Part shown: one piece after another, positions 25,801 through 55,800 of the stretch
Layout of the letters: every line of letters begins with the position of its first letter
How positions within the stretch are numbered: position 1 is the stretch's first letter
Program-made: the position numbers
Assembly: GCA_963668175.1 (NCBI GenBank)
Contig: OY764159.1
Location: 128,001-192,000, forward strand
DNA: 64,000 nt
Direction of reading: 5' to 3'
Source of the DNA: Syntrophales bacterium
GTDB taxonomy: Bacteria; Desulfobacterota; Syntrophia; Syntrophales; PHBD01

Positions 25801-28800
25801 TTGTTTTCTCGCCTTTGAATTCATCGAGGGATTTTATTTTGAGCGATCTTATTAAAAATACGCTGGAAAAATACCAAAAAGGCCTGATTATCGTTATTAC
25901 GGGCGATGGCAAGGGGAAAACAACGTCAGCCATCGGCCAGGCCGTGAGAGCGGCAGGACACGGAAAGAAGATTCTGGTCGTCCAGTTCATGAAGGGGAAA
26001 AAATACGGAGAAGTCCTCTGCACGGAGAAACATGTCCCCGGCATAAGCATGATCCAGTGCGGGCTGGACAGCTTCGTCATGAAGGACAACCCGGCCCCCG
26101 TCGATATCGAACTGGCGCAGCAGGGTCTGAAAATTGCGAAAGATGCTGCGGCCGCAGGCGAATACGACATGCTCATCCTGGACGAAATCAACGTCGCAAT
26201 GGATTTCAAACTGGTCGACGTTAAGGATGTGCTTCAACTCATCAAAAACAAGCCGGCGGGTATGGATCTTATTCTAACCGGGCGGTATGCCCCGGCCGAT
26301 ATCGTCGACGCGGCCGATACTGTCAGCGAAGTACGCGAGATCAAACATCATTATTCGCAGGGCATCAAAGAAAGGGCCGGAATAGAATTCTAGATCAGAA
26401 GGAACATGATCGGAAAACCATGCAAAAACCCCAAAAGGCGGGAAAGAGTGACCCAAAGAGAATAATCCTTGCCGATGAAGCCGTCAGGCAAGGCGCAGCG
26501 GCGGCTGAATGGATATCCATCCAGGATATCGTTCTTGACGAACGGGTCCGCCTCAAGTGCCAGATACCTTTATGCGACAGTTACGGCCGCAACCTGATGT
26601 GCCCCCCGCGCCTTCCCGAAGTCTCCAAATTCAGGGAAACGATTGCGCTCTTTTCTCAGGCTTTGCTCGTCCAGCTAGCGGCGCCGCTGACGGCGAAACC
26701 CTCCCGAAGCAGGAAGGAGGTCTACCTGCCGGCCAAGAGACTCCATGCCTTGATCAATCGTCTGGAAAAAATGGCTTTTGAAGAGGGATGTTATTACGCT
26801 ACGGGCCTGATCGGAGGATGCTGCCGTCTCTGCCCGGAGTGTGCAGCCGTCAGGGGCGAGACAAAATGTCGGCATCCCTTCCAGGCAAGACCTTCCATGG
26901 AAGCGATGGGAATCGATGTTATGGCGACCTTAGAAAAAGCAGGAATATCTTGTTCATTCCCGGTCTTGGACCATATCCGCTGGACCGGTCTGCTGTTGAT
27001 TTAGCCGTACAGACGGCCGAATGCCTGGAATTTCGCTTATCAAGCCCGGGAGGGGATTATTTTACCCGGACCTTGCACTTGGAGCTTGACTTCTTATCCC
27101 ACATCAACTATAAGACGCACCTCTTACGGTCCGGCCCCGTCGCGAAGTTCGTTCACGCACGTCCCCATCGTCTAGTGGCCTAGGACACCGGCCTTTCACG
27201 CCGGTAACCAGGGTTCGACTCCCTGTGGGGACGCCAATTCACCTCTATGATTCCCCTATATCGCCGGCGACATGCCGCCGTCATCCAGCATATCGATATT
27301 ATGAAGGATTCGTCCCGCTTCGGTATTGATACCAGGTTCAGCTCGCCGCAGATGAAGGTTGTGAAGTCTTATCCGTTACTCTTTTTACGGATGAGCATCA
27401 TATGAACCAGGTACTCCATGACGCTGCGGTCGTGGAGTCGAAGCGTCCAGGGAATGTCTTTTTCAGAGATAAGTTCGAGATCGTTGATCGCATTGCCGTG
27501 GCCTCCTCCGGAGAAGAGCGAACGGACCATGGCGGGGCTCGATCCTTTATGCTCGGACCGCTGGGAGTGCCCCCCCAGCCATGCCTCAACCGGAGTGGCA
27601 TTGGCGGTCCAGTCGTACGGGCTGGAAACGGCCGCGCTGCCGCCGGGCATCAGAATTCTACCGATCTCCTTCAGATAGTCGTAGGGCGACCAGACACAAT
27701 CCAGAACGTTAAGGCTTAATGCTGCGGAAAACGTCCGTTCGGCAAAAGGAAGGGCCGTCGCATCGCATACCCAGAAATCCACATGGTCTGCTTTCGGAAA
27801 TGTGACCGGAAATCTGCGGCGGTCAAAGGCAAGTCCTCCCCGACGCAGGGGATAGGATATGTGCCCTTTTTCCAGAATGGCCGCACCCGTCTTCAGCATG
27901 CCGAAATTCAGGTCGACTCCCAGCACGATTTCATCGAGCGCCTCCGCCAACTCAAAACTCGTACGGCCGACGGCGCAGCCGATATCGATCAATGGCCCTC
28001 CCCCGCCGTATTCATCCGACAGGACACCCTGACGAAGCAATTTGACGATCGACCCCGGCGCCACCGGAGACGACGGCCATCCTTCCGGGTCCAGGTCGCC
28101 GTAGTGATCGAACGCATAGGTGCTGATATGCTGGCGCTGCGAATCGAACACCGACCCCGGACCGAAACAGTCCCCCAGGAGACTCTCCATGGTTTCGGTC
28201 AAATCGTCCCGGCATAAGACAGGCAGTACATTATGAGAAATATAGTTTCTCAGGTTGGCGACGATGACGGGGATTCCGTCAATCACCGGATATTCGCTGA
28301 GACACCGGCCGTCGGAACAGACGAGAATGCCCTCTGTGATCGAACGGTTATTCTCCTTGAGGACGGTTTTGATCGTAAGCGCGGATTCCCGCCCCGCCGA
28401 TCGGCATACGGGACACAAAGGCTTCAGTTTTTCGAAATGAAGCGGTTTGATGGGTCCTACCCTCCAATCATGACGGTCGGGCATCCGGGGGGAAGAATTT
28501 TGCCCGTAGGACTGGGGATGGGGGCTGCGCAAGCGGCGTGGGCGGTCAGGTCGTTGACCCTGGCCGCGGGGAGGCCGCCGATCATGACGGTCGCCGATCC
28601 CATGACCACGGTGCCGGGGCCTCCGGGCACGCAGCCGGGAACCGTGCACGGCGTCGTGGTGCTTGTCAGTCGCGCGGCGGGCTGGTTACCGATGAGGACG
28701 GTGAACATGCCGGTGATGATCGTGACCGGCACGGCCGGATGGGGCACAGGCGTGGGCACAGGCGCCGCCGGATGGATGGGGGCATGGCAGTGCGGAGCAT

Positions 28801-52800: not shown

Positions 52801-55800
52801 ATCGGACCGGTGAAAAACCGGGTGAAGCACCTCCAGACGATTTTGAACTGGCTGATCAAGCAAGTTACCAAGCAATTGCTTTATGAGGAGGAGAAGAAGA
52901 GCGGTCTCTTTGAAGAATGGACGACAAGCGTTACAACCGATCAGGTCGAGGAGGTGCTGGATGCGAGCGACAAGTTGCGGCGTTCCCTGGGCCCGATTCT
53001 GGAGGATGCGGCCGGACCCGTTTTCGACGGGCTGACGAAGATCAACGACTGGCTGAAAGCCTTTCAACGCCTCATCTATCGTGCGCCTGAGCCGGAAGCG
53101 GCACAGGAAGAACAGGTCGAAGAAGAACCGCCGGAAGGGGCCATTTTCGACCAGGAACCCCGGCAACAGGAAAAAAGACGGTTCATGGCCCCGGGTTTGG
53201 AAGCCGGGGAAGACGCGTCAAGCATTGAAGGCTCCTATCACCTGAAGCTGCTCATGAGAAAACTCGATGCCTTTGATTACCTGATCTCGGAGGCGAAATA
53301 CGCCAATGCAGCCGTGGTCGCCGACGACATCAACACCATCATTGCAAGCTTCGATCCCCGGATCTATTTCCCGAAGCTCTTCACCCGGTTTGCCTTACTT
53401 TCCGCAGCCCATGTGAACGAACTGACCTCCTATGCGGAATACAAGGAGAGCCCGGCGTGGACTTCCCTGCAGGAACTCTACAAGATCGACATGGATAGTT
53501 TTATCGAATTCAATCCGGAAGCCGTCGATACAGGCCACTCCGGCGGAGGCGGGCAATACGGTTCAAGTAGTGATTACGAAAGAGGATACGAAGACGAGGA
53601 TCGTTAGAAATACCGTCCTGACGGCTTCCAAAAGCATCAAAGAGGAGATGACCTATGCCTCCGGGCAAGAAGAACATTTTCACCGGTCAGGGAACGACCG
53701 GTGATCCGGGTACGATCAAGCCGACCACCGACATGGATCGGTCGACGAAACAGATAGGCAAACTGACGGATGAATACGACAAGGAAGTCGTCTTTGTGAT
53801 CTGGAAATTCAAGGGTATATCCAGTTGCGGACACGCTGCGCTCAAGCTGAAAAGACTCGATGAGCAGGACAAGAAGGTAAAAAATTTCGAATACATCAGC
53901 TGGTGGCCCAAGTCTTCGGATTTAATTAACACGGACAAAGTACAGCAAATCAATCGGAACCCTGTGCTTACGCCATTGAGGGTTCTTCAGCCGAGGATGG
54001 GGGAAGGCCATAAGGATTACTGGACGGACGAAGAGGCGGAGCTGTCTTCGGACAAACAGATCGCCATATTTCTATCATTCCTCTATCGGGCCTGCAATGA
54101 CGAACGTCCGGCACTGGTTAAAAAATACCTGGAATCATACTGGCAGGGGGACAAAAAAAAGGACGGCACCGAAGGCGAGCAATGCCAGGCGTGGCGAGCC
54201 ATGGGCTTTACGGAAAACTTCGGCAACATGGAGACGATGATCGCCCAGGGCAGGATCGGCCTCGGGGCGCGGCAGAAGGTACAGAAGAACACACGCTATG
54301 TCGACCCTGTTACAAGGAAATTCGACACTAAAAAAATACTTGATGACGTTAAACGCAGCCCGACTCTTTTAGAAATGAATCAGGAGTATCTCCTGAAGAT
54401 CGGGAAGCTGCCGGACGAGAAGATCTACCTGCCCTGTTCATACCTGACCTATAAGACCGATGACGGAACGCCCTATCGATTCGTGTGGGGACTTTCCCAG
54501 GACGCCATCAGACGTTCCTGGAGAATATTCAAGGACACGCATAACCCGCAATGGATTATGCTCACGAACAAGATCAATTGTGCTTCCGTCGCTTGGAACA
54601 GGCTGATGGACGGTTACGCCGAAGAATTACTGGAAGGCAACACAGGGGACTTGATTTCGGCCCTGCAAAGAAAGATCTATATACAGCCGAACAACATCAT
54701 CGAAATCGGCGAGAGGCTGGATAAGGCGCTGAAGAAGCTCAACGAGCAGCAGAAGAAGATCGATGAGGTTACCAACAAACATTACGCGAAAATCAGGCCG
54801 CTTGCACAGGGCGGCAAAATACTCAAAGAGTGCGAAGCCATCGCGGAGAAGTTATTCAATAAGAAAGGCATAGCCAAGGGCGTCCAGAAGAATAAAATCT
54901 ATTACGAGAACGAAAAGACCAACCTCTGGCCTCCCATGCTCCAGTCGTCATTCTGGCTCGACATCAGTAAGACGAAAAGCATGAGATCTTCATCTTTGAG
55001 GAAGATCGACGACGCGGTGAAGGCCTTTCAGGCGGTCGGCGACAAGCTCGACAGATACGAAGAGCACAGGCTGATCGCATCCATCTTACAAGACGAGAAG
55101 AGATATCTTGATCTTATCGACGAGCTTGACAAGGCCTTGAAGCAGAAGACCGTCATCCTCTTCAACGTCAGAAGCATCGAGGAGAAACTCGACGCCGTGC
55201 GGGAGATGATGAAAGTCAACTTTGTCGAGGCCACGAAGCATAAAAGGGAAAAAATCAAACAACTGATAAAGCTCCACAACGCGATTTTTCATTACGTAAA
55301 CTCTGCAAAGGATGACGACGAAAGGCTGCCCAGCGTTCTCTTTCTGGGACAATGCGTCGCCTGCGCCTTTGCCGAAACGGCGCATCACGGCGTCTACGTG
55401 CTCCTGGCGGCCTTAGATAACTCGTTTTATCCCGCTTTCTTCGAAGAAATTCTGGATAAACAGGAAGCCGTCGTGTCGCCCACGGTTTCCGTGATGGAAC
55501 ACATGCAGATTATGAAAAGCGAAATCGACCTGCCGATATCGAAATACGAATTTCCTCTGTAACCCGTTTTTCTGTAAACAGCGCCGGGTACATCAGATTG
55601 ATTTTTCAATTGTCTAAACCCTGAGTCGACGGTGATCGTTCTCAGCCGTCGACCCAAGGGTTTCATGAATAGGCTTGTTGCTCGAAGATGCCGGGAACCG
55701 TCTTCTCCTAACGGTAGGCCTCCTGGATGAGCCGGTTCAGATAGACTTCCGGATTCTCCACACCTTCCGCGGGTATCTGAAAATGGTCCTTGCCGGTCTT

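What a model noticed while it worked through the whole genome (the two positions that open the first line are those of the whole stretch)
28457..55562. Mosaic type VI secretion cluster joining T6SS-i sheath/baseplate with Francisella-type (T6SS-ii) parts
The single T6SS locus (g00151-g00168, with PAAR g00146 nearby) has canonical TssB/C/E/F/G/K/L genes but no recognisable TssM, TssJ, TssA, Hcp, full-size VgrG or ClpV. In their place stand an IglE-type lipoprotein (g00153), an IglI-family protein (g00167), a ClpB paralog at the head of the operon (g00151), a 1245-aa P-loop protein (g00152), and two small 128-aa and 173-aa repeat proteins with weak VgrG-C-terminal likeness (g00147, g00161). Boldest reading: free-living anaerobic Syntrophales carry an evolutionary intermediate between T6SS-i and the Francisella pathogenicity-island system, so T6SS-ii features are not unique to Francisella. 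New: recent literature still calls T6SS-ii unique to Fr [...]
Evidence so far: Canonical parts: TssB TIGR03358 2.6e-45; TssC TIGR03355 8e-157 (42% identical to P. aeruginosa TssC1); TssK, TssE, TssF, TssG and DotU; NCBIfam NF041244 'IglI family' 1.7e-91. IglE_N scores 8.8e-25 on a lipoprotein-type signal ending LSGC. Missing parts: a lenient Pfam scan (E<0.1) of 11 unassigned proteins finds no IcmF/TssM, Hcp, VgrG or ImpA at significance. It finds only AAA_22 5e-6 in g00152 and weak DUF2345 in g00147 and g00161. phmmer against PDB sequences gives 0 hits for g00152, g00157, g00160 and g00167. Distribution: IglE_N occurs in 13 of 338 Syntrophales and 305 of 189,784 bacterial species genomes. It lies within 2 genes of a ClpB-type AAA in 67 of them and of TssB in 46. 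Liter [...]
(Added by a program. Inside this text positions count along the whole contig: contig position 128,001 is position 1 of the stretch shown here. "Call 12" and the like, gene names such as g00115 and contig names such as C1 are that model's own, and its searches are not shown. The text may have been shortened before it was handed on; [...] marks where a part breaks off. The agent that wrote the report below was given it as the finding of a first reader that could run no searches.)

Follow-up and report, generated by a model that had tools for sequence, protein, structure and literature searches.

The report
Francisella-like type VI secretion lineage
This free-living anaerobe carries a complete type VI secretion "crossbow" whose parts are closest to those of the unusual system of the tularemia bacterium Francisella, so that supposedly Francisella-only design belongs to a much wider environmental family.

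Summary
The gene cluster is real: one 18-gene + strand operon (window 32174-55562), plus the genome's only PAAR gene 3.3 kb upstream.

- The 1249-aa P-loop protein is a divergent TssM/PdpB.
- The 190-aa protein after TssC has the fold of Francisella IglC, the tube protein (VIA Z 13.3, against 8.8 for the best Hcp).
- The 541-aa protein is a spike hub with the PdpA/VgrG fold.
- The 173-aa protein is a small VgrG of the Francisella type.
- The IglI-family protein links IglI to TssA.

The "mosaic" reading fails. The sheath is not T6SS-i-like: TssB and TssC match Francisella IglA and IglB better than any other solved sheath. In a maximum-likelihood TssC tree, this system and its relatives form a 100/100 clade with Francisella IglB. 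All 8 named T6SS-i TssCs and the 33 nearest unnamed representatives fall outside it.

Relatives of the cluster turned up in 65 loci from Thermodesulfobacteriota, Myxococcota, Gammaproteobacteria and three other phyla.

Verdict: a complete, less diverged sister lineage of the Francisella island system (T6SS-ii in a broad sense), not a mosaic. I class it as a new variant of a known kind. Reviews up to 2026 still call T6SS-ii unique to Francisella.

The parts
28457..28840 (-). PAAR spike-tip protein (127 aa)
   Evidence: PF05488 at 5.7e-14, 52.5 bits against a cut-off of 27. It is the only PF05488 match in the whole genome. It lies 3.3 kb from the only T6SS cluster.
28882..29268 (-). 128-aa repeat-rich small protein, possibly a second small VgrG-like beta-helix
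   Evidence: No family hit beyond weak chance-level ones. BLASTP to the 173-aa small VgrG gives E 0.003 over 56 residues. hhalign to Francisella-type VgrG gives nothing (0.2%). The assignment is tentative.
32174..34840 (+). Dedicated ClpB paralogue (888 aa), inferred sheath-recycling unfoldase in place of ClpV
   Evidence: TIGR03346 ClpB scores 1167 bits (cut-off 1232), against 789 for TIGR03345 ClpV (cut-off 885). Both Walker A and both Walker B motifs are present. A housekeeping ClpB lies elsewhere in the genome at 47.6% identity. The same under-cut-off paralogue is found next to the cluster in Syntrophus buswellii and Methylobacter psychrophilus.
34988..38737 (+). Divergent TssM/PdpB inner-membrane subunit (1249 aa)
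   Evidence: TIGR03348 at 1.1e-12 over residues 837-1196, and IcmF_IVB at 4.8e-5 over residues 85-254. hhalign to a PdpB set gives 99.5%, E 1.7e-22, 419 columns. Walker A GEAGSGKS lies at residue 108, with G108, G113 and K114 invariant in 22 sequences. There are two hydrophobic segments, at 21-39 and 366-384.
38772..39275 (+). IglE-type (TssJ-like) outer-membrane lipoprotein (167 aa)
   Evidence: PF22361 IglE_N at 9.7e-25. NF041245 IglE scores 53.7 bits (cut-off 75) and TssJ TIGR03352 scores 19.4 bits. C40 is invariant and G39 is at least 90% conserved. hhalign to IglE gives 94.7%, E 6.2e-8.
39382..41118 (+). Conserved accessory protein with an acyl-CoA-ligase-like (ANL) fold, probably not catalytic (578 aa)
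   Evidence: AMP-binding at 4.4e-6, 26.2 bits, under the cut-off of 29.9. The atlas's first hit is an AMP-binding cluster at 0.99. None of 25 family members has the ANL P-loop or the YGxTE motif. tblastn finds it in 34 of 65 related loci. hhalign to IglF gives nothing.
41165..41683 (+). TssB/IglA small sheath subunit (172 aa)
   Evidence: TIGR03358 at 1.2e-44. The best solved-structure sequence is Francisella IglA (3j9o_A) at 87.8 bits, against VipA at 72.5.
41755..43263 (+). TssC/IglB large sheath subunit (502 aa)
   Evidence: TIGR03355 at 3.6e-156. The best solved-structure sequence is IglB (3j9o_B) at 432 bits, against 368 for the next. The best of 579 plasmid-collection records is an F. 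tularensis record at 45.1% identity. The tree clade with IglB has 100/100 support.
43319..43891 (+). IglC-fold inner-tube protein (190 aa), the functional Hcp
   Evidence: No Pfam or NCBIfam hit. There are 236 homologues, all unnamed. The AF2 model has pLDDT 82.3. The only Foldseek match with E <= 0.001 is IglC 2qwu_A (4.3e-4, TM 0.61). VIA gives IglC Z 13.3 over 175 residues, against the best Hcp at Z 8.8 over 131. It sits in the iglA-iglB-iglC-iglD position. An 82%-identical paralogue lies elsewhere in the genome.
44135..45379 (+). TssK/IglD baseplate subunit (414 aa)
   Evidence: TIGR03353 at 2.8e-94. hhalign to IglD gives 98.0%, E 2.7e-13, 375 columns.
45438..45815 (+). TssE (gp25-like) sheath initiator (125 aa)
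   Evidence: TIGR03357 scores 60.9 bits against a cut-off of 53.2. PF04965 at 4.3e-13.
45833..47458 (+). PdpA/VgrG-fold spike hub (541 aa)
   Evidence: No family hit. The AF2 model has pLDDT 85.0. The top three Foldseek matches are Francisella PdpA (6u9e_A, 2.9e-25, TM 0.65), followed by eCIS spikes and T6SS VgrG at 1.4e-17. VIA ties VgrG 8gra_G (Z 23.7) with PdpA (Z 23.4). hhalign to PdpA gives 95.2%, E 2.6e-8, 216 columns.
47490..48011 (+). Small Francisella-type VgrG (173 aa), beta-helical needle
   Evidence: NF041249 T6SS_TssI_Fran at 1.1e-5, 25.5 bits, under the cut-off of 100. hhalign to Francisella-type VgrG gives 91.0%, E 1.1e-6, 55 columns. It lies directly after the spike hub.
48032..49672 (+). 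TssF/IglH baseplate subunit (546 aa)
   Evidence: TIGR03359 at 3.9e-30 and NF041246 IglH at 1e-12.
49669..50358 (+). DotU/TssL membrane subunit (229 aa)
   Evidence: TIGR03349 at 1.4e-21. There is a C-terminal hydrophobic segment at 206-224.
50374..50727 (+). 117-aa conserved protein of unknown role
   Evidence: No family hit. tblastn finds it in 18 of 65 related loci.
50810..51709 (+). TssG/IglJ baseplate subunit (299 aa)
   Evidence: TIGR03347 at 3.8e-7 and NF041243 IglJ at 2.3e-5.
51570..52499 (+). Protein with four CxxC...CxxC zinc-ribbon-like modules. The ORF is 309 aa; the true start is probably near 51768.
   Evidence: The four cysteine modules are read directly from the translation. 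Only weak LIM and DksA-type hits were found. tblastn finds it in 14 of 65 related loci.
52444..53607 (+). IglI-family protein with a TssA-like N-terminal domain. The ORF is 387 aa; the likely start is 52528.
   Evidence: NF041244 scores 304.6 bits against a cut-off of 100, and TIGR03362 TssA gives 5.8e-4. It is the only TssA-model match in the genome. hhalign to island IglI gives 99.0%, E 5.2e-18. hhalign to TssA proteins gives 93.8-95.4%, E 1.7e-7 to 1.8e-8.
53655..55562 (+). 635-aa variable protein at the operon's end, candidate cargo or effector
   Evidence: No family hit. It is absent from all 65 related loci. A 23.6%-identical paralogue lies elsewhere in the genome. The atlas gives weak leads only, with recognition below its mark.

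Best explanation
The locus encodes a complete contractile type VI secretion machine. It belongs to a lineage that shares its closest known common ancestry with the Francisella pathogenicity-island system (T6SS-ii).

Proposed working (inferred from homology, not tested):
- DotU, the PdpB-like TssM and the IglE-type lipoprotein form the envelope-spanning anchor.
- TssK, TssF, TssG and TssE form the baseplate around a split spike. The spike is made of a PdpA-like hub, a small VgrG needle and the single PAAR tip.
- The IglC-fold protein polymerises as the inner tube inside a TssB/TssC (IglA/IglB-type) sheath, with the IglI/TssA-like protein assisting assembly.
- After contraction, the dedicated ClpB paralogue, not a ClpV, takes the sheath apart.
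- The variable 635-aa last gene is the likeliest cargo.

The cluster is a slowly evolving relative of the island system, not a recombinant of two systems. It was probably acquired horizontally.
For: Shown.

(1) Completeness. Every T6SS role has a candidate.
- TssM/PdpB.
- Lipoprotein.
- Tube: IglC is the only Foldseek match with E <= 0.001, and VIA gives Z 13.3 against 8.8 for the best Hcp.
- Spike hub: PdpA at 2.9e-25 by Foldseek, and hhalign at 95.2%.
- Small VgrG.
- TssA-like IglI.
- No canonical Hcp or VgrG exists anywhere in the genome, and there is a single PAAR.

(2) Kinship with the Francisella system.
- TssC scores 432 bits to IglB against 368 for the next solved sheath. TssB scores 87.8 bits to IglA against 72.5.
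- An F. tularensis record is the best of 579 plasmid-collection records (45.1% identity against 40.6% at most among the rows listed).
- In the careful IQ-TREE run (81 rows, 477 columns), 32 window-type and 8 island-side TssCs form a clade with ultrafast bootstrap/SH-aLRT support of 100/100. All 8 named T6SS-i rows and 33 unnamed nearest representatives lie outside it.
- FastTree on all 187 rows agrees, with an 87-row clade at support 100.

(3) The same signal appears in other genes. hhalign to island proteins gives IglI 99.0%, PdpB 99.5%, IglD 98.0%, PdpA 95.2%, IglE 94.7% and VgrG 91.0%. All 9 control pairs and both were under 1%.

(4) Shared gene blocks with the island locus L078: TssB-TssC-tube-TssK, PdpB-IglE, and VgrG...TssF-DotU.

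(5) Conservation. tblastn of the window's proteins against 65 loci fetched with the tube protein found TssC in 59, TssK in 56, TssB in 55, the spike hub in 46, TssF in 45, the small VgrG in 44, TssG in 43, DotU in 41, IglI in 39 and TssE in 38. The 10-kb flanks limit the outer genes.

(6) The complex prediction for IglE-like with the TssM C-terminus gave weak support. Median ipSAE was 0.59 and the best of 3 controls was 0.00. The runs agreed in at least 92% of contacts and the partner's pLDDT was at least 84. That mark was reached by 116 of 157 solved complexes and by 2 of 215 mismatched pairs. At 0.60 or under, only 18 of those 157 passed, as did both mismatches. TssJ-TssM complexes have been solved, so the pass may reflect likeness to them.

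(7) Patchy spread. The tube profile matches 13 of 339 genomes of the order, and 0 of 8 other genomes of the window's own family.
Against: - The tube's link to IglC is by fold only. hhalign gives 0.8%. Profiles against solved-structure sequences and against intermediate clusters find nothing.
- For the spike hub, VIA ties canonical VgrG (Z 23.7) with PdpA (Z 23.4). The A2 profile finds no PdpA among solved-structure sequences.
- All Francisella equivalog models score under their cut-offs: IglE 53.7/75, IglH 47.7/75, IglJ 23.9/100, TssI_Fran 25.5/100.
- TssF-IglH and TssG-IglJ are weak by hhalign (E 0.017 and 0.008).
- Island genes IglF and IglG have no counterpart here. PdpC, PdpD and PdpE were not compared. 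The cluster has TssE and a classical PAAR, which the island lacks.
- The tree is rooted at its midpoint only. No T6SS-iii or T6SS-iv outgroup was included, and T6SS-i subfamilies were not labelled. The island side is one clade in only 36% of bootstrap trees.
- TssK's best solved-structure sequence match is E. coli TssK (28.8 bits), with 8dql_C at 22.6.
- No expression or functional data exist.
Confidence: 0.78

Rival explanations
1. Mosaic: a T6SS-i sheath and baseplate module was joined by recombination to Francisella-type membrane and spike parts.
For: TssB, TssC, TssK and TssE pass T6SS-i-trained TIGRFAM cut-offs. TssF and TssG score higher on the T6SS-i models than on the IglH and IglJ models (105 against 48 bits, and 29.6 against 23.9). 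TssK's best solved-structure sequence is E. coli TssK.
Against: A genuine island locus passes the same TIGRFAM cut-offs (IglA 164, IglB 407, IglD 240 bits), so those hits do not mark T6SS-i origin. TssB and TssC are closest to IglA and IglB and form a 100/100 clade with IglB. TssK aligns to IglD at 98%. The window's proteins score as well as or better than the island's on most canonical models (TssC, TssK, DotU, TssF, TssG). That fits slower divergence of one coherent lineage.
Confidence: 0.06
2. It is simply a divergent subfamily of canonical T6SS-i. The likeness to the Francisella system reflects shared ancestral features and thin sampling, so 'T6SS-ii-like' is a matter of labelling.
For: A 2026 survey places Francisella T6SS-ii nested within the T6SS-i lineage on a TssC tree (PMC13098142, passages read). 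The cluster keeps TssE, TssF, TssG, DotU and PAAR in canonical form. My tree has no outgroup and its T6SS-i subfamilies are not labelled.
Against: Canonical Hcp, VgrG, TssJ, TssA and ClpV models all fail here. The replacements are specifically the Francisella solutions: IglC fold, PdpA plus small VgrG, IglE, IglI and ClpB. A long branch of 0.48 with 100/100 support separates the joint clade from 41 other TssCs.
Confidence: 0.14
3. The cluster is a decaying or non-functional remnant that lacks essential parts.
For: Five proteins have no assigned role (578, 117, 309, 635 and 128 aa). No RNA data are on hand.
Against: All 18 operon ORFs are intact and co-directional, with gaps of 244 bp at most. 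Catalytic motifs are kept in ClpB and TssM. Core proteins are 44-93% identical across phyla. Every essential role has a candidate.
Confidence: 0.03

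Closest known systems
Francisella pathogenicity island T6SS (T6SS-ii: IglA/B sheath, IglC tube, PdpA+VgrG spike, PdpB-DotU-IglE anchor, IglD/H/J baseplate, IglI, ClpB)
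   Same: - The sheath is closest to IglA/IglB and forms one clade with it.
- The tube has the IglC fold.
- The spike is split into a PdpA-like hub and a small VgrG.
- It has an IglE-type lipoprotein, a PdpB-like TssM and an IglI-family protein.
- It uses a ClpB-type rather than a ClpV-type ATPase. ClpB's role in Francisella is taken from PMC5481754 (abstract in the search listing) and from passages of PMC5924787 and PMC10433429.
- It shares the gene blocks TssB-TssC-tube-TssK and PdpB-IglE.
   Different: - It scores under every Francisella equivalog cut-off.
- It has a recognisable TssE, a classical PAAR in place of IglG, and a dedicated second ClpB inside the operon.
- It has no IglF counterpart by hhalign. 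PdpC, PdpD and PdpE were not compared.
- It has extra conserved genes: an ANL-fold protein of 578 aa, a 117-aa protein and a zinc-ribbon protein.
- The host is a free-living anaerobe, not an intracellular pathogen.
Canonical T6SS-i (TssA-M, Hcp, VgrG, ClpV; e.g. V. cholerae, P. aeruginosa H1, E. coli Sci-1)
   Same: It has the same contractile architecture. TssB, TssC, TssK and TssE pass the TIGRFAM cut-offs. DotU, TssF and TssG are recognisable, and a PAAR is present.
   Different: There is no Hcp or VgrG family match in the genome. TssJ, TssA, TssM, TssF, TssG and ClpV all score under their cut-offs. TssC lies outside all 8 named T6SS-i sequences in the tree.
Other island-side clusters found here: a second cluster in genome G268 (L076/L077), clusters in G147 and G314 (L080-L083), and Cysteiniphilum IglB (P0270)
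   Same: They lie in the same 100/100 TssC clade. They have the TssB-TssC-~200-aa protein-TssK order, an IglI-family protein, a small VgrG, IglH and a PdpB-like TssM.
   Different: They fall on the Francisella side of the clade, at 47-52% TssC identity to the window. The protein after TssC in G147 and G314 leans weakly to IglC (E 0.0007-0.004) and not to the window's tube family; that of the second G268 cluster matched neither.
Marine gammaproteobacterial subgroup of the window-type clade (e.g. Aliikangiella L027, Pseudoalteromonas rubra L031, Zooshikella L036)
   Same: It has the same tube family (44-56% identity), the spike hub, IglI_fam, TssF/IglH and IglJ/TssG.
   Different: TssC is about 630-660 aa, with an N-terminal extension. 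TssB is only 29-44% identical. It has an IglG-type PAAR-like protein (60 bits). No IglE match or only a weak one was found in three such genomes.

Membership tests
T6SS-ii (Francisella pathogenicity-island type) | Sheath subunits of the IglA/IglB lineage | tested here: met
   IglB scores 432 bits and IglA 87.8 bits, the best of all solved sheaths. The clade with F. tularensis IglB has 100/100 support.
T6SS-ii (Francisella pathogenicity-island type) | IglC-type tube instead of canonical Hcp | tested here: met
   Met at the fold level only: IglC Z 13.3 over 175 residues against Hcp Z 8.8 over 131, and IglC is the only Foldseek match with E <= 0.001. Sequence profiles find no link.
T6SS-ii (Francisella pathogenicity-island type) | Split spike: PdpA hub plus small (~165 aa) VgrG | tested here: met
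   The 541-aa protein matches PdpA by Foldseek at 2.9e-25 and by hhalign at 95.2%. The 173-aa protein matches Francisella VgrG by hhalign at 91% and NF041249 at 1.1e-5. Caveat: VIA ties canonical VgrG with PdpA.
T6SS-ii (Francisella pathogenicity-island type) | PdpB-DotU-IglE membrane complex | tested here: met
   PdpB by hhalign at 99.5%. IglE_N scores 87.3 bits against a cut-off of 26. DotU at 1.4e-21. The complex prediction gave weak support: 0.59 against 0.00 for the best control.
T6SS-ii (Francisella pathogenicity-island type) | IglI-family protein | tested here: met
   NF041244 scores 304.6 bits against a cut-off of 100. hhalign to island IglI gives 99.0%.
T6SS-ii (Francisella pathogenicity-island type) | NCBIfam equivalog scores for IglE, IglH, IglJ and Francisella TssI over their cut-offs | tested here: not met
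   Scores are 53.7/75, 47.7/75, 23.9/100 and 25.5/100. A true island locus passes all of them.
T6SS-ii (Francisella pathogenicity-island type) | IglG (DUF4280 PAAR-like) with IglF, and PdpC/PdpD/PdpE effectors | tested here: not met
   hhalign finds no IglF or IglG counterpart; all pairs were under 1%. A classical PAAR is present instead. PdpC, PdpD and PdpE were not compared.
T6SS-ii (Francisella pathogenicity-island type) | Sheath recycling by ClpB, not ClpV | not testable with these tools
   The gene content fits: a ClpB-type paralogue lies in the operon and no ClpV passes. The function was not tested.
Canonical T6SS-i | Hcp (PF05638) and VgrG (TIGR03361) | tested here: not met
   No match in the complete genome, while the E. 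coli control rang.
Canonical T6SS-i | TssJ, TssM, TssA, TssF, TssG and ClpV at equivalog level | tested here: not met
   Scores are 19.4/31.6, 46.8/388, 19/230, 105/260, 29.6/143 and 789/885 bits.
Canonical T6SS-i | TssB, TssC, TssK and TssE at equivalog level | tested here: met
   Scores are 151.9/97, 520.7/271.5, 316.7/100 and 60.9/53.2 bits. The island's own IglA, IglB and IglD pass too, so this feature does not discriminate.

The most novel reading that the evidence does not exclude
The Francisella island system is not a one-genus oddity. It is the fast-evolving, host-adapted tip of a large and so far unnamed T6SS lineage. That lineage is spread by horizontal transfer through anaerobic Thermodesulfobacteriota, Myxococcota, methanotrophs and marine Gammaproteobacteria. 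It is defined by an IglC-type tube, a split PdpA/VgrG spike, an IglE lipoprotein, an IglI protein that is the missing TssA, and ClpB-based recycling. Its less diverged members work as a key for naming the island's orphan parts, and they offer harmless model organisms for studying that machine.
Probability: 0.55. Interest if true: 0.8.

Novelty: new variant of a known kind. Interest (0 to 1): 0.7.

Why it matters
Reviews and surveys I read in passages or abstracts still describe T6SS-ii as limited to Francisella:
- PMC4793230 (2016): all 30 T6SS-ii systems lay in 18 Francisella genomes.
- PMC10433429 (2023): 'exclusively in the Francisella genus'.
- PMC12955703 (2026 abstract): 'uniquely'.
- PMC13098142 (2026): adds only Dongshaea.

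Here the same design turns up in free-living bacteria of at least six phyla (by the NCBI record titles), in a form that has diverged less from ordinary T6SS. This has three consequences.
1. It dates the Francisella-type solutions (IglC tube, PdpA/VgrG split spike, IglE, ClpB) to before Francisella's intracellular life.
2. It bridges orphan island proteins to known roles. The IglI-family profile matches both island IglI (99%) and TssA (94-95%), while island IglI alone does not reach TssA. A 2018 review listed the Francisella TssA as unidentified (PMC5924787, Table 1).
3. It names cultivable, harmless carriers in which this machine could be studied, such as Syntrophus buswellii, Methylobacter psychrophilus and Pseudoalteromonas rubra.

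It also raises the question of what a syntrophic anaerobe fires at.

Tried and rejected
- Single-sequence and profile searches of the 190-aa and 541-aa proteins against solved-structure sequences gave only chance hits: antibodies, an ice-structuring protein, or nothing.
- hhalign and hmmsearch found no sequence link between the tube family and IglC, even through the intermediate clusters.
- The idea that the 578-aa protein is IglF, and that the 117-aa or 309-aa proteins are IglG, was rejected; hhalign was under 1%.
- My first all-against-all hhalign run timed out with no output. I replaced it with 20 chosen pairs, 9 of them controls.
- Expression: no RNA holder was listed for window 41165-47458, so I made no read-laying run.
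- Promoter and terminator scans of 31200-56500 were at chance level: 9 against 9.6, 12 against 16.6, 11 against 7.8, and 14 against 13.9.
- The atlas look-up of the 635-aa protein gave weak leads only, with recognition 1959 below the 2300 mark.
- The DUF4280 search of the own genome found nothing, but its control rang nowhere, so it is uninformative.
- Earlier scan notes held nothing on this place, on this sequence, or on IglE, IglC or IglI.
- Literature: the terms 'T6SSii-like', 'FPI-like', 'Francisella-like T6SS', 'IglC-like', 'PdpA-like' and 'Francisella-type T6SS' found 3 papers, all on Francisellaceae or Cysteiniphilum. The search for IglI with TssA and Francisella found 3 papers; in the passages I read of two of them (PMC5924787, PMC10433429) none equated IglI with TssA, and I did not open the third (PMC6063899). 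Searches combining T6SS terms with Syntrophus, Desulfobacterota, Methylobacter or Zooshikella listed nothing relevant.
- I read no supplementary tables. Table S8 of PMC13098142 may list further non-Francisella T6SS-ii calls.

Full report
**What is there.** Window 32174-55562 holds 18 co-directional ORFs on the + strand. Gaps between them are at most 244 bp, and some overlap. On the minus strand, 3.3 kb upstream, lie a PAAR gene (28457-28840) and a 128-aa gene (28882-29268).

- TssB 1.2e-44, TssC 3.6e-156, TssK 2.8e-94 and TssE 9.5e-17.
- TssF 3.9e-30, TssG 3.8e-7 and DotU 1.4e-21.
- IglI_fam 9.8e-91, IglE_N 9.7e-25 and PAAR 5.7e-14.
- A ClpB-type ATPase: 1167 bits on the ClpB model against 789 on the ClpV model, both under their cut-offs.

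The genome is a single 4.57-Mb contig rated 100% complete. It holds no second T6SS core gene. It has no match to the Hcp family PF05638 or the VgrG family TIGR03361. It has exactly one PAAR match, the gene named above.

**The "missing" parts are present.**
- *TssM.* The 1249-aa protein hits the TssM model over residues 837-1196 (1.1e-12) and the IcmF N-terminus at 4.8e-5. Its Walker A residues are invariant in 22 homologues. It has two hydrophobic segments. Its family aligns to a PdpB set at 99.5%, E 1.7e-22, over 419 columns, with two controls under 1%.
- *Tube.* The 190-aa protein after TssC has 236 homologues, none named. With an alignment of 37 of them, AlphaFold2 gave pLDDT 82.3. The only Foldseek match in the PDB with E <= 0.001 is Francisella IglC (2qwu_A, 4.3e-4, TM 0.61). 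VIA-align gives IglC Z 13.3 (175 residues, rmsd 3.4) against Z 8.8 (131 residues) for the best canonical Hcp.
- *Spike hub.* The 541-aa protein has 442 homologues and a model of pLDDT 85.0. Its three best Foldseek matches are Francisella PdpA (2.9e-25 to 1.7e-23). eCIS spikes (3e-20) and T6SS VgrG (1.4e-17) follow. VIA-align ties VgrG 8gra_G (Z 23.7, 443 residues) with PdpA (Z 23.4, 488 residues). hhalign to PdpA gives 95.2%, E 2.6e-8.
- *Needle.* The next gene (173 aa) matches the Francisella small-VgrG model at 1.1e-5 and aligns by hhalign at 91.0%.
- *TssA-like protein.* The IglI-family protein is the only TssA-model match in the genome. Its family aligns both to island IglI (99.0%, E 5.2e-18) and to TssA proteins taken from other genomes (93.8% for the set and 95.4% for one TssA; five controls under 1%). 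Island IglI alone does not reach TssA.

**Kinship.** The sheath is not T6SS-i-like.
- Among solved-structure sequences, TssC scores best to IglB (432 bits). VipB follows at 368, P. aeruginosa TssC1 at 360 and Myxococcus TssC at 352.
- TssB scores best to IglA, at 87.8 bits against 72.5.
- In the plasmid collection, 579 records hold a TssC relative. The best is a record labelled F. tularensis SCHU S4 (45.1%, 397 bits). The listed T6SS-i records reach 40.6% at most.

I gathered sequences for a TssC tree from four sources:
- 65 related loci fetched with the tube-protein alignment.
- The best 150 of 5816 representatives of a whole-library TssC search.
I found these with the IglE model, which hit 4 of 401 sampled genomes of one gammaproteobacterial class, 2 of them over the cut-off.
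- Nine named sequences from the plasmid collection.

Its ORFs pass the equivalog cut-offs for IglE, Francisella VgrG, IglG, IglH and IglJ. Its TssC is 94% identical to the F. tularensis sequence.

The trees agree with one another:
- FastTree used 187 rows: the window, 60 of 64 locus TssCs of at least 430 aa, and 126 of the 150 representatives that cover the query. It gave an 87-row clade with support 100 that joins window-type and island-type sequences.
- A careful IQ-TREE run used 81 rows that I chose from these plus the named ones, with LG+G4 over 477 columns. It gave a 40-row clade (32 window-type, 8 island-side) with support 100/100. The window-type group had 98/99.
- In that run, all 8 named T6SS-i sequences and 33 unnamed representatives fell outside the clade. 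The named ones are Vibrio, Cronobacter, Campylobacter, Rhizobium, E. coli, Cupriavidus, Acinetobacter and Ralstonia.
- The island side is a single clade in only 36% of bootstrap trees.
- The root is at the midpoint only.
- One island-side representative, P0270, is named 'Intracellular growth locus iglB' of Cysteiniphilum.

**Why it is not a mosaic.** But the island's own IglA, IglB and IglD pass the same cut-offs (164, 407 and 240 bits), and PdpB hits the TssM model at 60 bits. Signals from the sheath, TssK-IglD (98%), PdpB, IglE, IglI, PdpA and VgrG all point the same way. On most canonical models the window's proteins score higher than the island's: TssC 521 against 407, TssK 317 against 240, DotU 77 against 34, and TssF and TssG detectable against not detectable. 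That pattern fits a slowly diverging sister lineage. I built no single-gene trees other than TssC, so a local exchange is not excluded.

**Spread.**
- By the record titles, the 65 loci come from Pseudomonadota (31; 12 Methylococcales and 11 Alteromonadales), Thermodesulfobacteriota (25), Myxococcota (5), Gemmatimonadota (1), Planctomycetota (1), Zixibacteria (1) and one unplaced record.
- tblastn of the window's proteins found TssC in 59 of the 65 loci, TssK in 56 and TssB in 55.
- It found the spike hub in 46, TssF in 45, the small VgrG in 44 and TssG in 43.
- It found DotU in 41, IglI in 39, TssE in 38 and the 578-aa protein in 34.
- It found TssM in 23, IglE in 23 and ClpB in 21.
- It found the 117-aa protein in 18, the zinc-ribbon protein in 14 and the 635-aa protein in 0.
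- The 10-kb flanks and contig ends limit the outer genes.
- There are two subgroups. One has TssC 73-92% identical to the window's (Desulfobacterota, Myxococcota, methanotrophs). The other has TssC 52-62% identical (mostly marine Gammaproteobacteria). An example of the second, from Aliikangiella, also carries an IglG-type PAAR-like gene.
- In the window's order, the tube profile matches 13 of 339 genomes, and 9 of the 204 of good quality. It matches none of the 8 other genomes of the window's own family. That points to horizontal acquisition.

**Mechanism (inferred).**
- The anchor is DotU with the PdpB-like TssM and the IglE-type lipoprotein.
- A complex prediction of the TssM C-terminus (residues 830-1249) with mature IglE-like gave weak support. 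The median ipSAE was 0.59 and the best of 3 controls was 0.00. Contacts agreed in at least 92%, and the partner's pLDDT was at least 84.
- The mark was reached by 116 of 157 solved complexes and by 2 of 215 mismatched pairs. At 0.60 or under, only 18 of those 157 passed, as did both mismatches.
- TssJ-TssM complexes have been solved, so that pass may reflect likeness to them.
- The baseplate is TssK, TssF, TssG and TssE.
- The spike is the hub, the small VgrG and the PAAR.
- The tube is the IglC-fold protein.
- The sheath is TssB/TssC.
- Assembly is helped by the IglI/TssA-like protein.
- Recycling is done by the dedicated ClpB paralogue, which has both Walker A and both Walker B motifs. The same under-cut-off paralogue sits beside the cluster in Syntrophus buswellii (1163 bits) and Methylobacter psychrophilus (1109 bits). 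Each of those genomes also has a housekeeping ClpB over the cut-off.
- The target of the machine is unknown. The 635-aa last gene is the best cargo candidate because it is variable, but it has no recognisable domain.

**What is known.** I read only passages or abstracts of the papers below.
- Abby et al. 2016 detected T6SS-ii only in Francisella (PMC4793230).
- A 2023 review says it exists 'exclusively in the Francisella genus' (PMC10433429).
- A 2026 abstract says 'uniquely' (PMC12955703).
- A 2026 survey reports T6SS-ii calls in Francisella and one Dongshaea genome, and a TssC tree with T6SS-ii nested in T6SS-i (PMC13098142). I did not read its supplements.
- The term 'FPI-like' appears in 3 papers, all on Francisellaceae or Cysteiniphilum.
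- NCBIfam's 'IglI family' subfamily model and Pfam's IglE_N show that curators have met non-Francisella members.
- I found no description of this lineage as such. Subscription journals are not covered by the library.

**Verdict.** This is a complete T6SS of a widespread lineage related to the Francisella system, and a new variant of a known kind. Confidence in that reading is about 0.78. The weakest links are the fold-only tie of the tube to IglC, the unrooted and unlabelled tree, and the lack of any expression or functional data.

Noticed in passing
L084:8418-8990 (genome G000:C1:2234418-2234990, outside the window): There is an orphan second copy of the IglC-fold tube gene, 82% identical. 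It sits between a choloylglycine-hydrolase-family amidase (PF02275, 1.8e-46) and a 223-aa unknown protein followed by a Tat-signal polysaccharide deacetylase. It may be an auxiliary tube-plus-cargo module like the orphan hcp islands.
   Followed up: partly
L085:8124-10136 (genome G000:C1:2300124-2302136): A 670-aa paralogue of the operon's last gene lies elsewhere in the genome (23.6% identity over 475 aa, E 3.7e-13). It has no Pfam hit, and its neighbours are unrelated to T6SS.
   Followed up: partly
window 39382-41118: A conserved T6SS-cluster protein has an acyl-CoA-ligase-like (ANL) signature but lacks the P-loop and YGxTE motifs in all 25 family members. It may be a pseudoenzyme recruited as a structural or accessory part.
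   Followed up: partly
Here and in Syntrophus and Methylobacter, a second, dedicated ClpB sits in the cluster.
   Followed up: partly
L027:8011-9924 and 17 other loci (L029, L031, L032, L036-L041, L043, L044, L046, L047, L062, L063): In the marine gammaproteobacterial subgroup, TssC is 630-663 aa, about 130 residues longer at the N-terminus than usual. Many 50%-cluster representatives of the clade are 800-1300 aa. These may be fusions or gene-call artefacts; I did not examine them.
   Followed up: no
window 27369-30699, minus strand: The PAAR gene and the 128-aa gene lie between a B12-binding radical SAM gene (29365-30699) and an OvoA-C-terminal-like methyltransferase ORF (27369-28649). As listed, that ORF overlaps the PAAR ORF, so its true start is probably further downstream. 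Whether these enzymes relate to the spike tip is unknown.
   Followed up: no
window 30886-31317, minus strand: An RsbW-type anti-sigma-factor kinase gene lies just upstream of the T6SS operon and is divergently oriented (HATPase_c_2 at 2.4e-26). It is a possible regulator.
   Followed up: no
window 51570-52499: This protein has four repeated CxxC...CxxC zinc-ribbon-like modules. tblastn finds it in 14 of 65 related loci, and its role is unknown.
   Followed up: no
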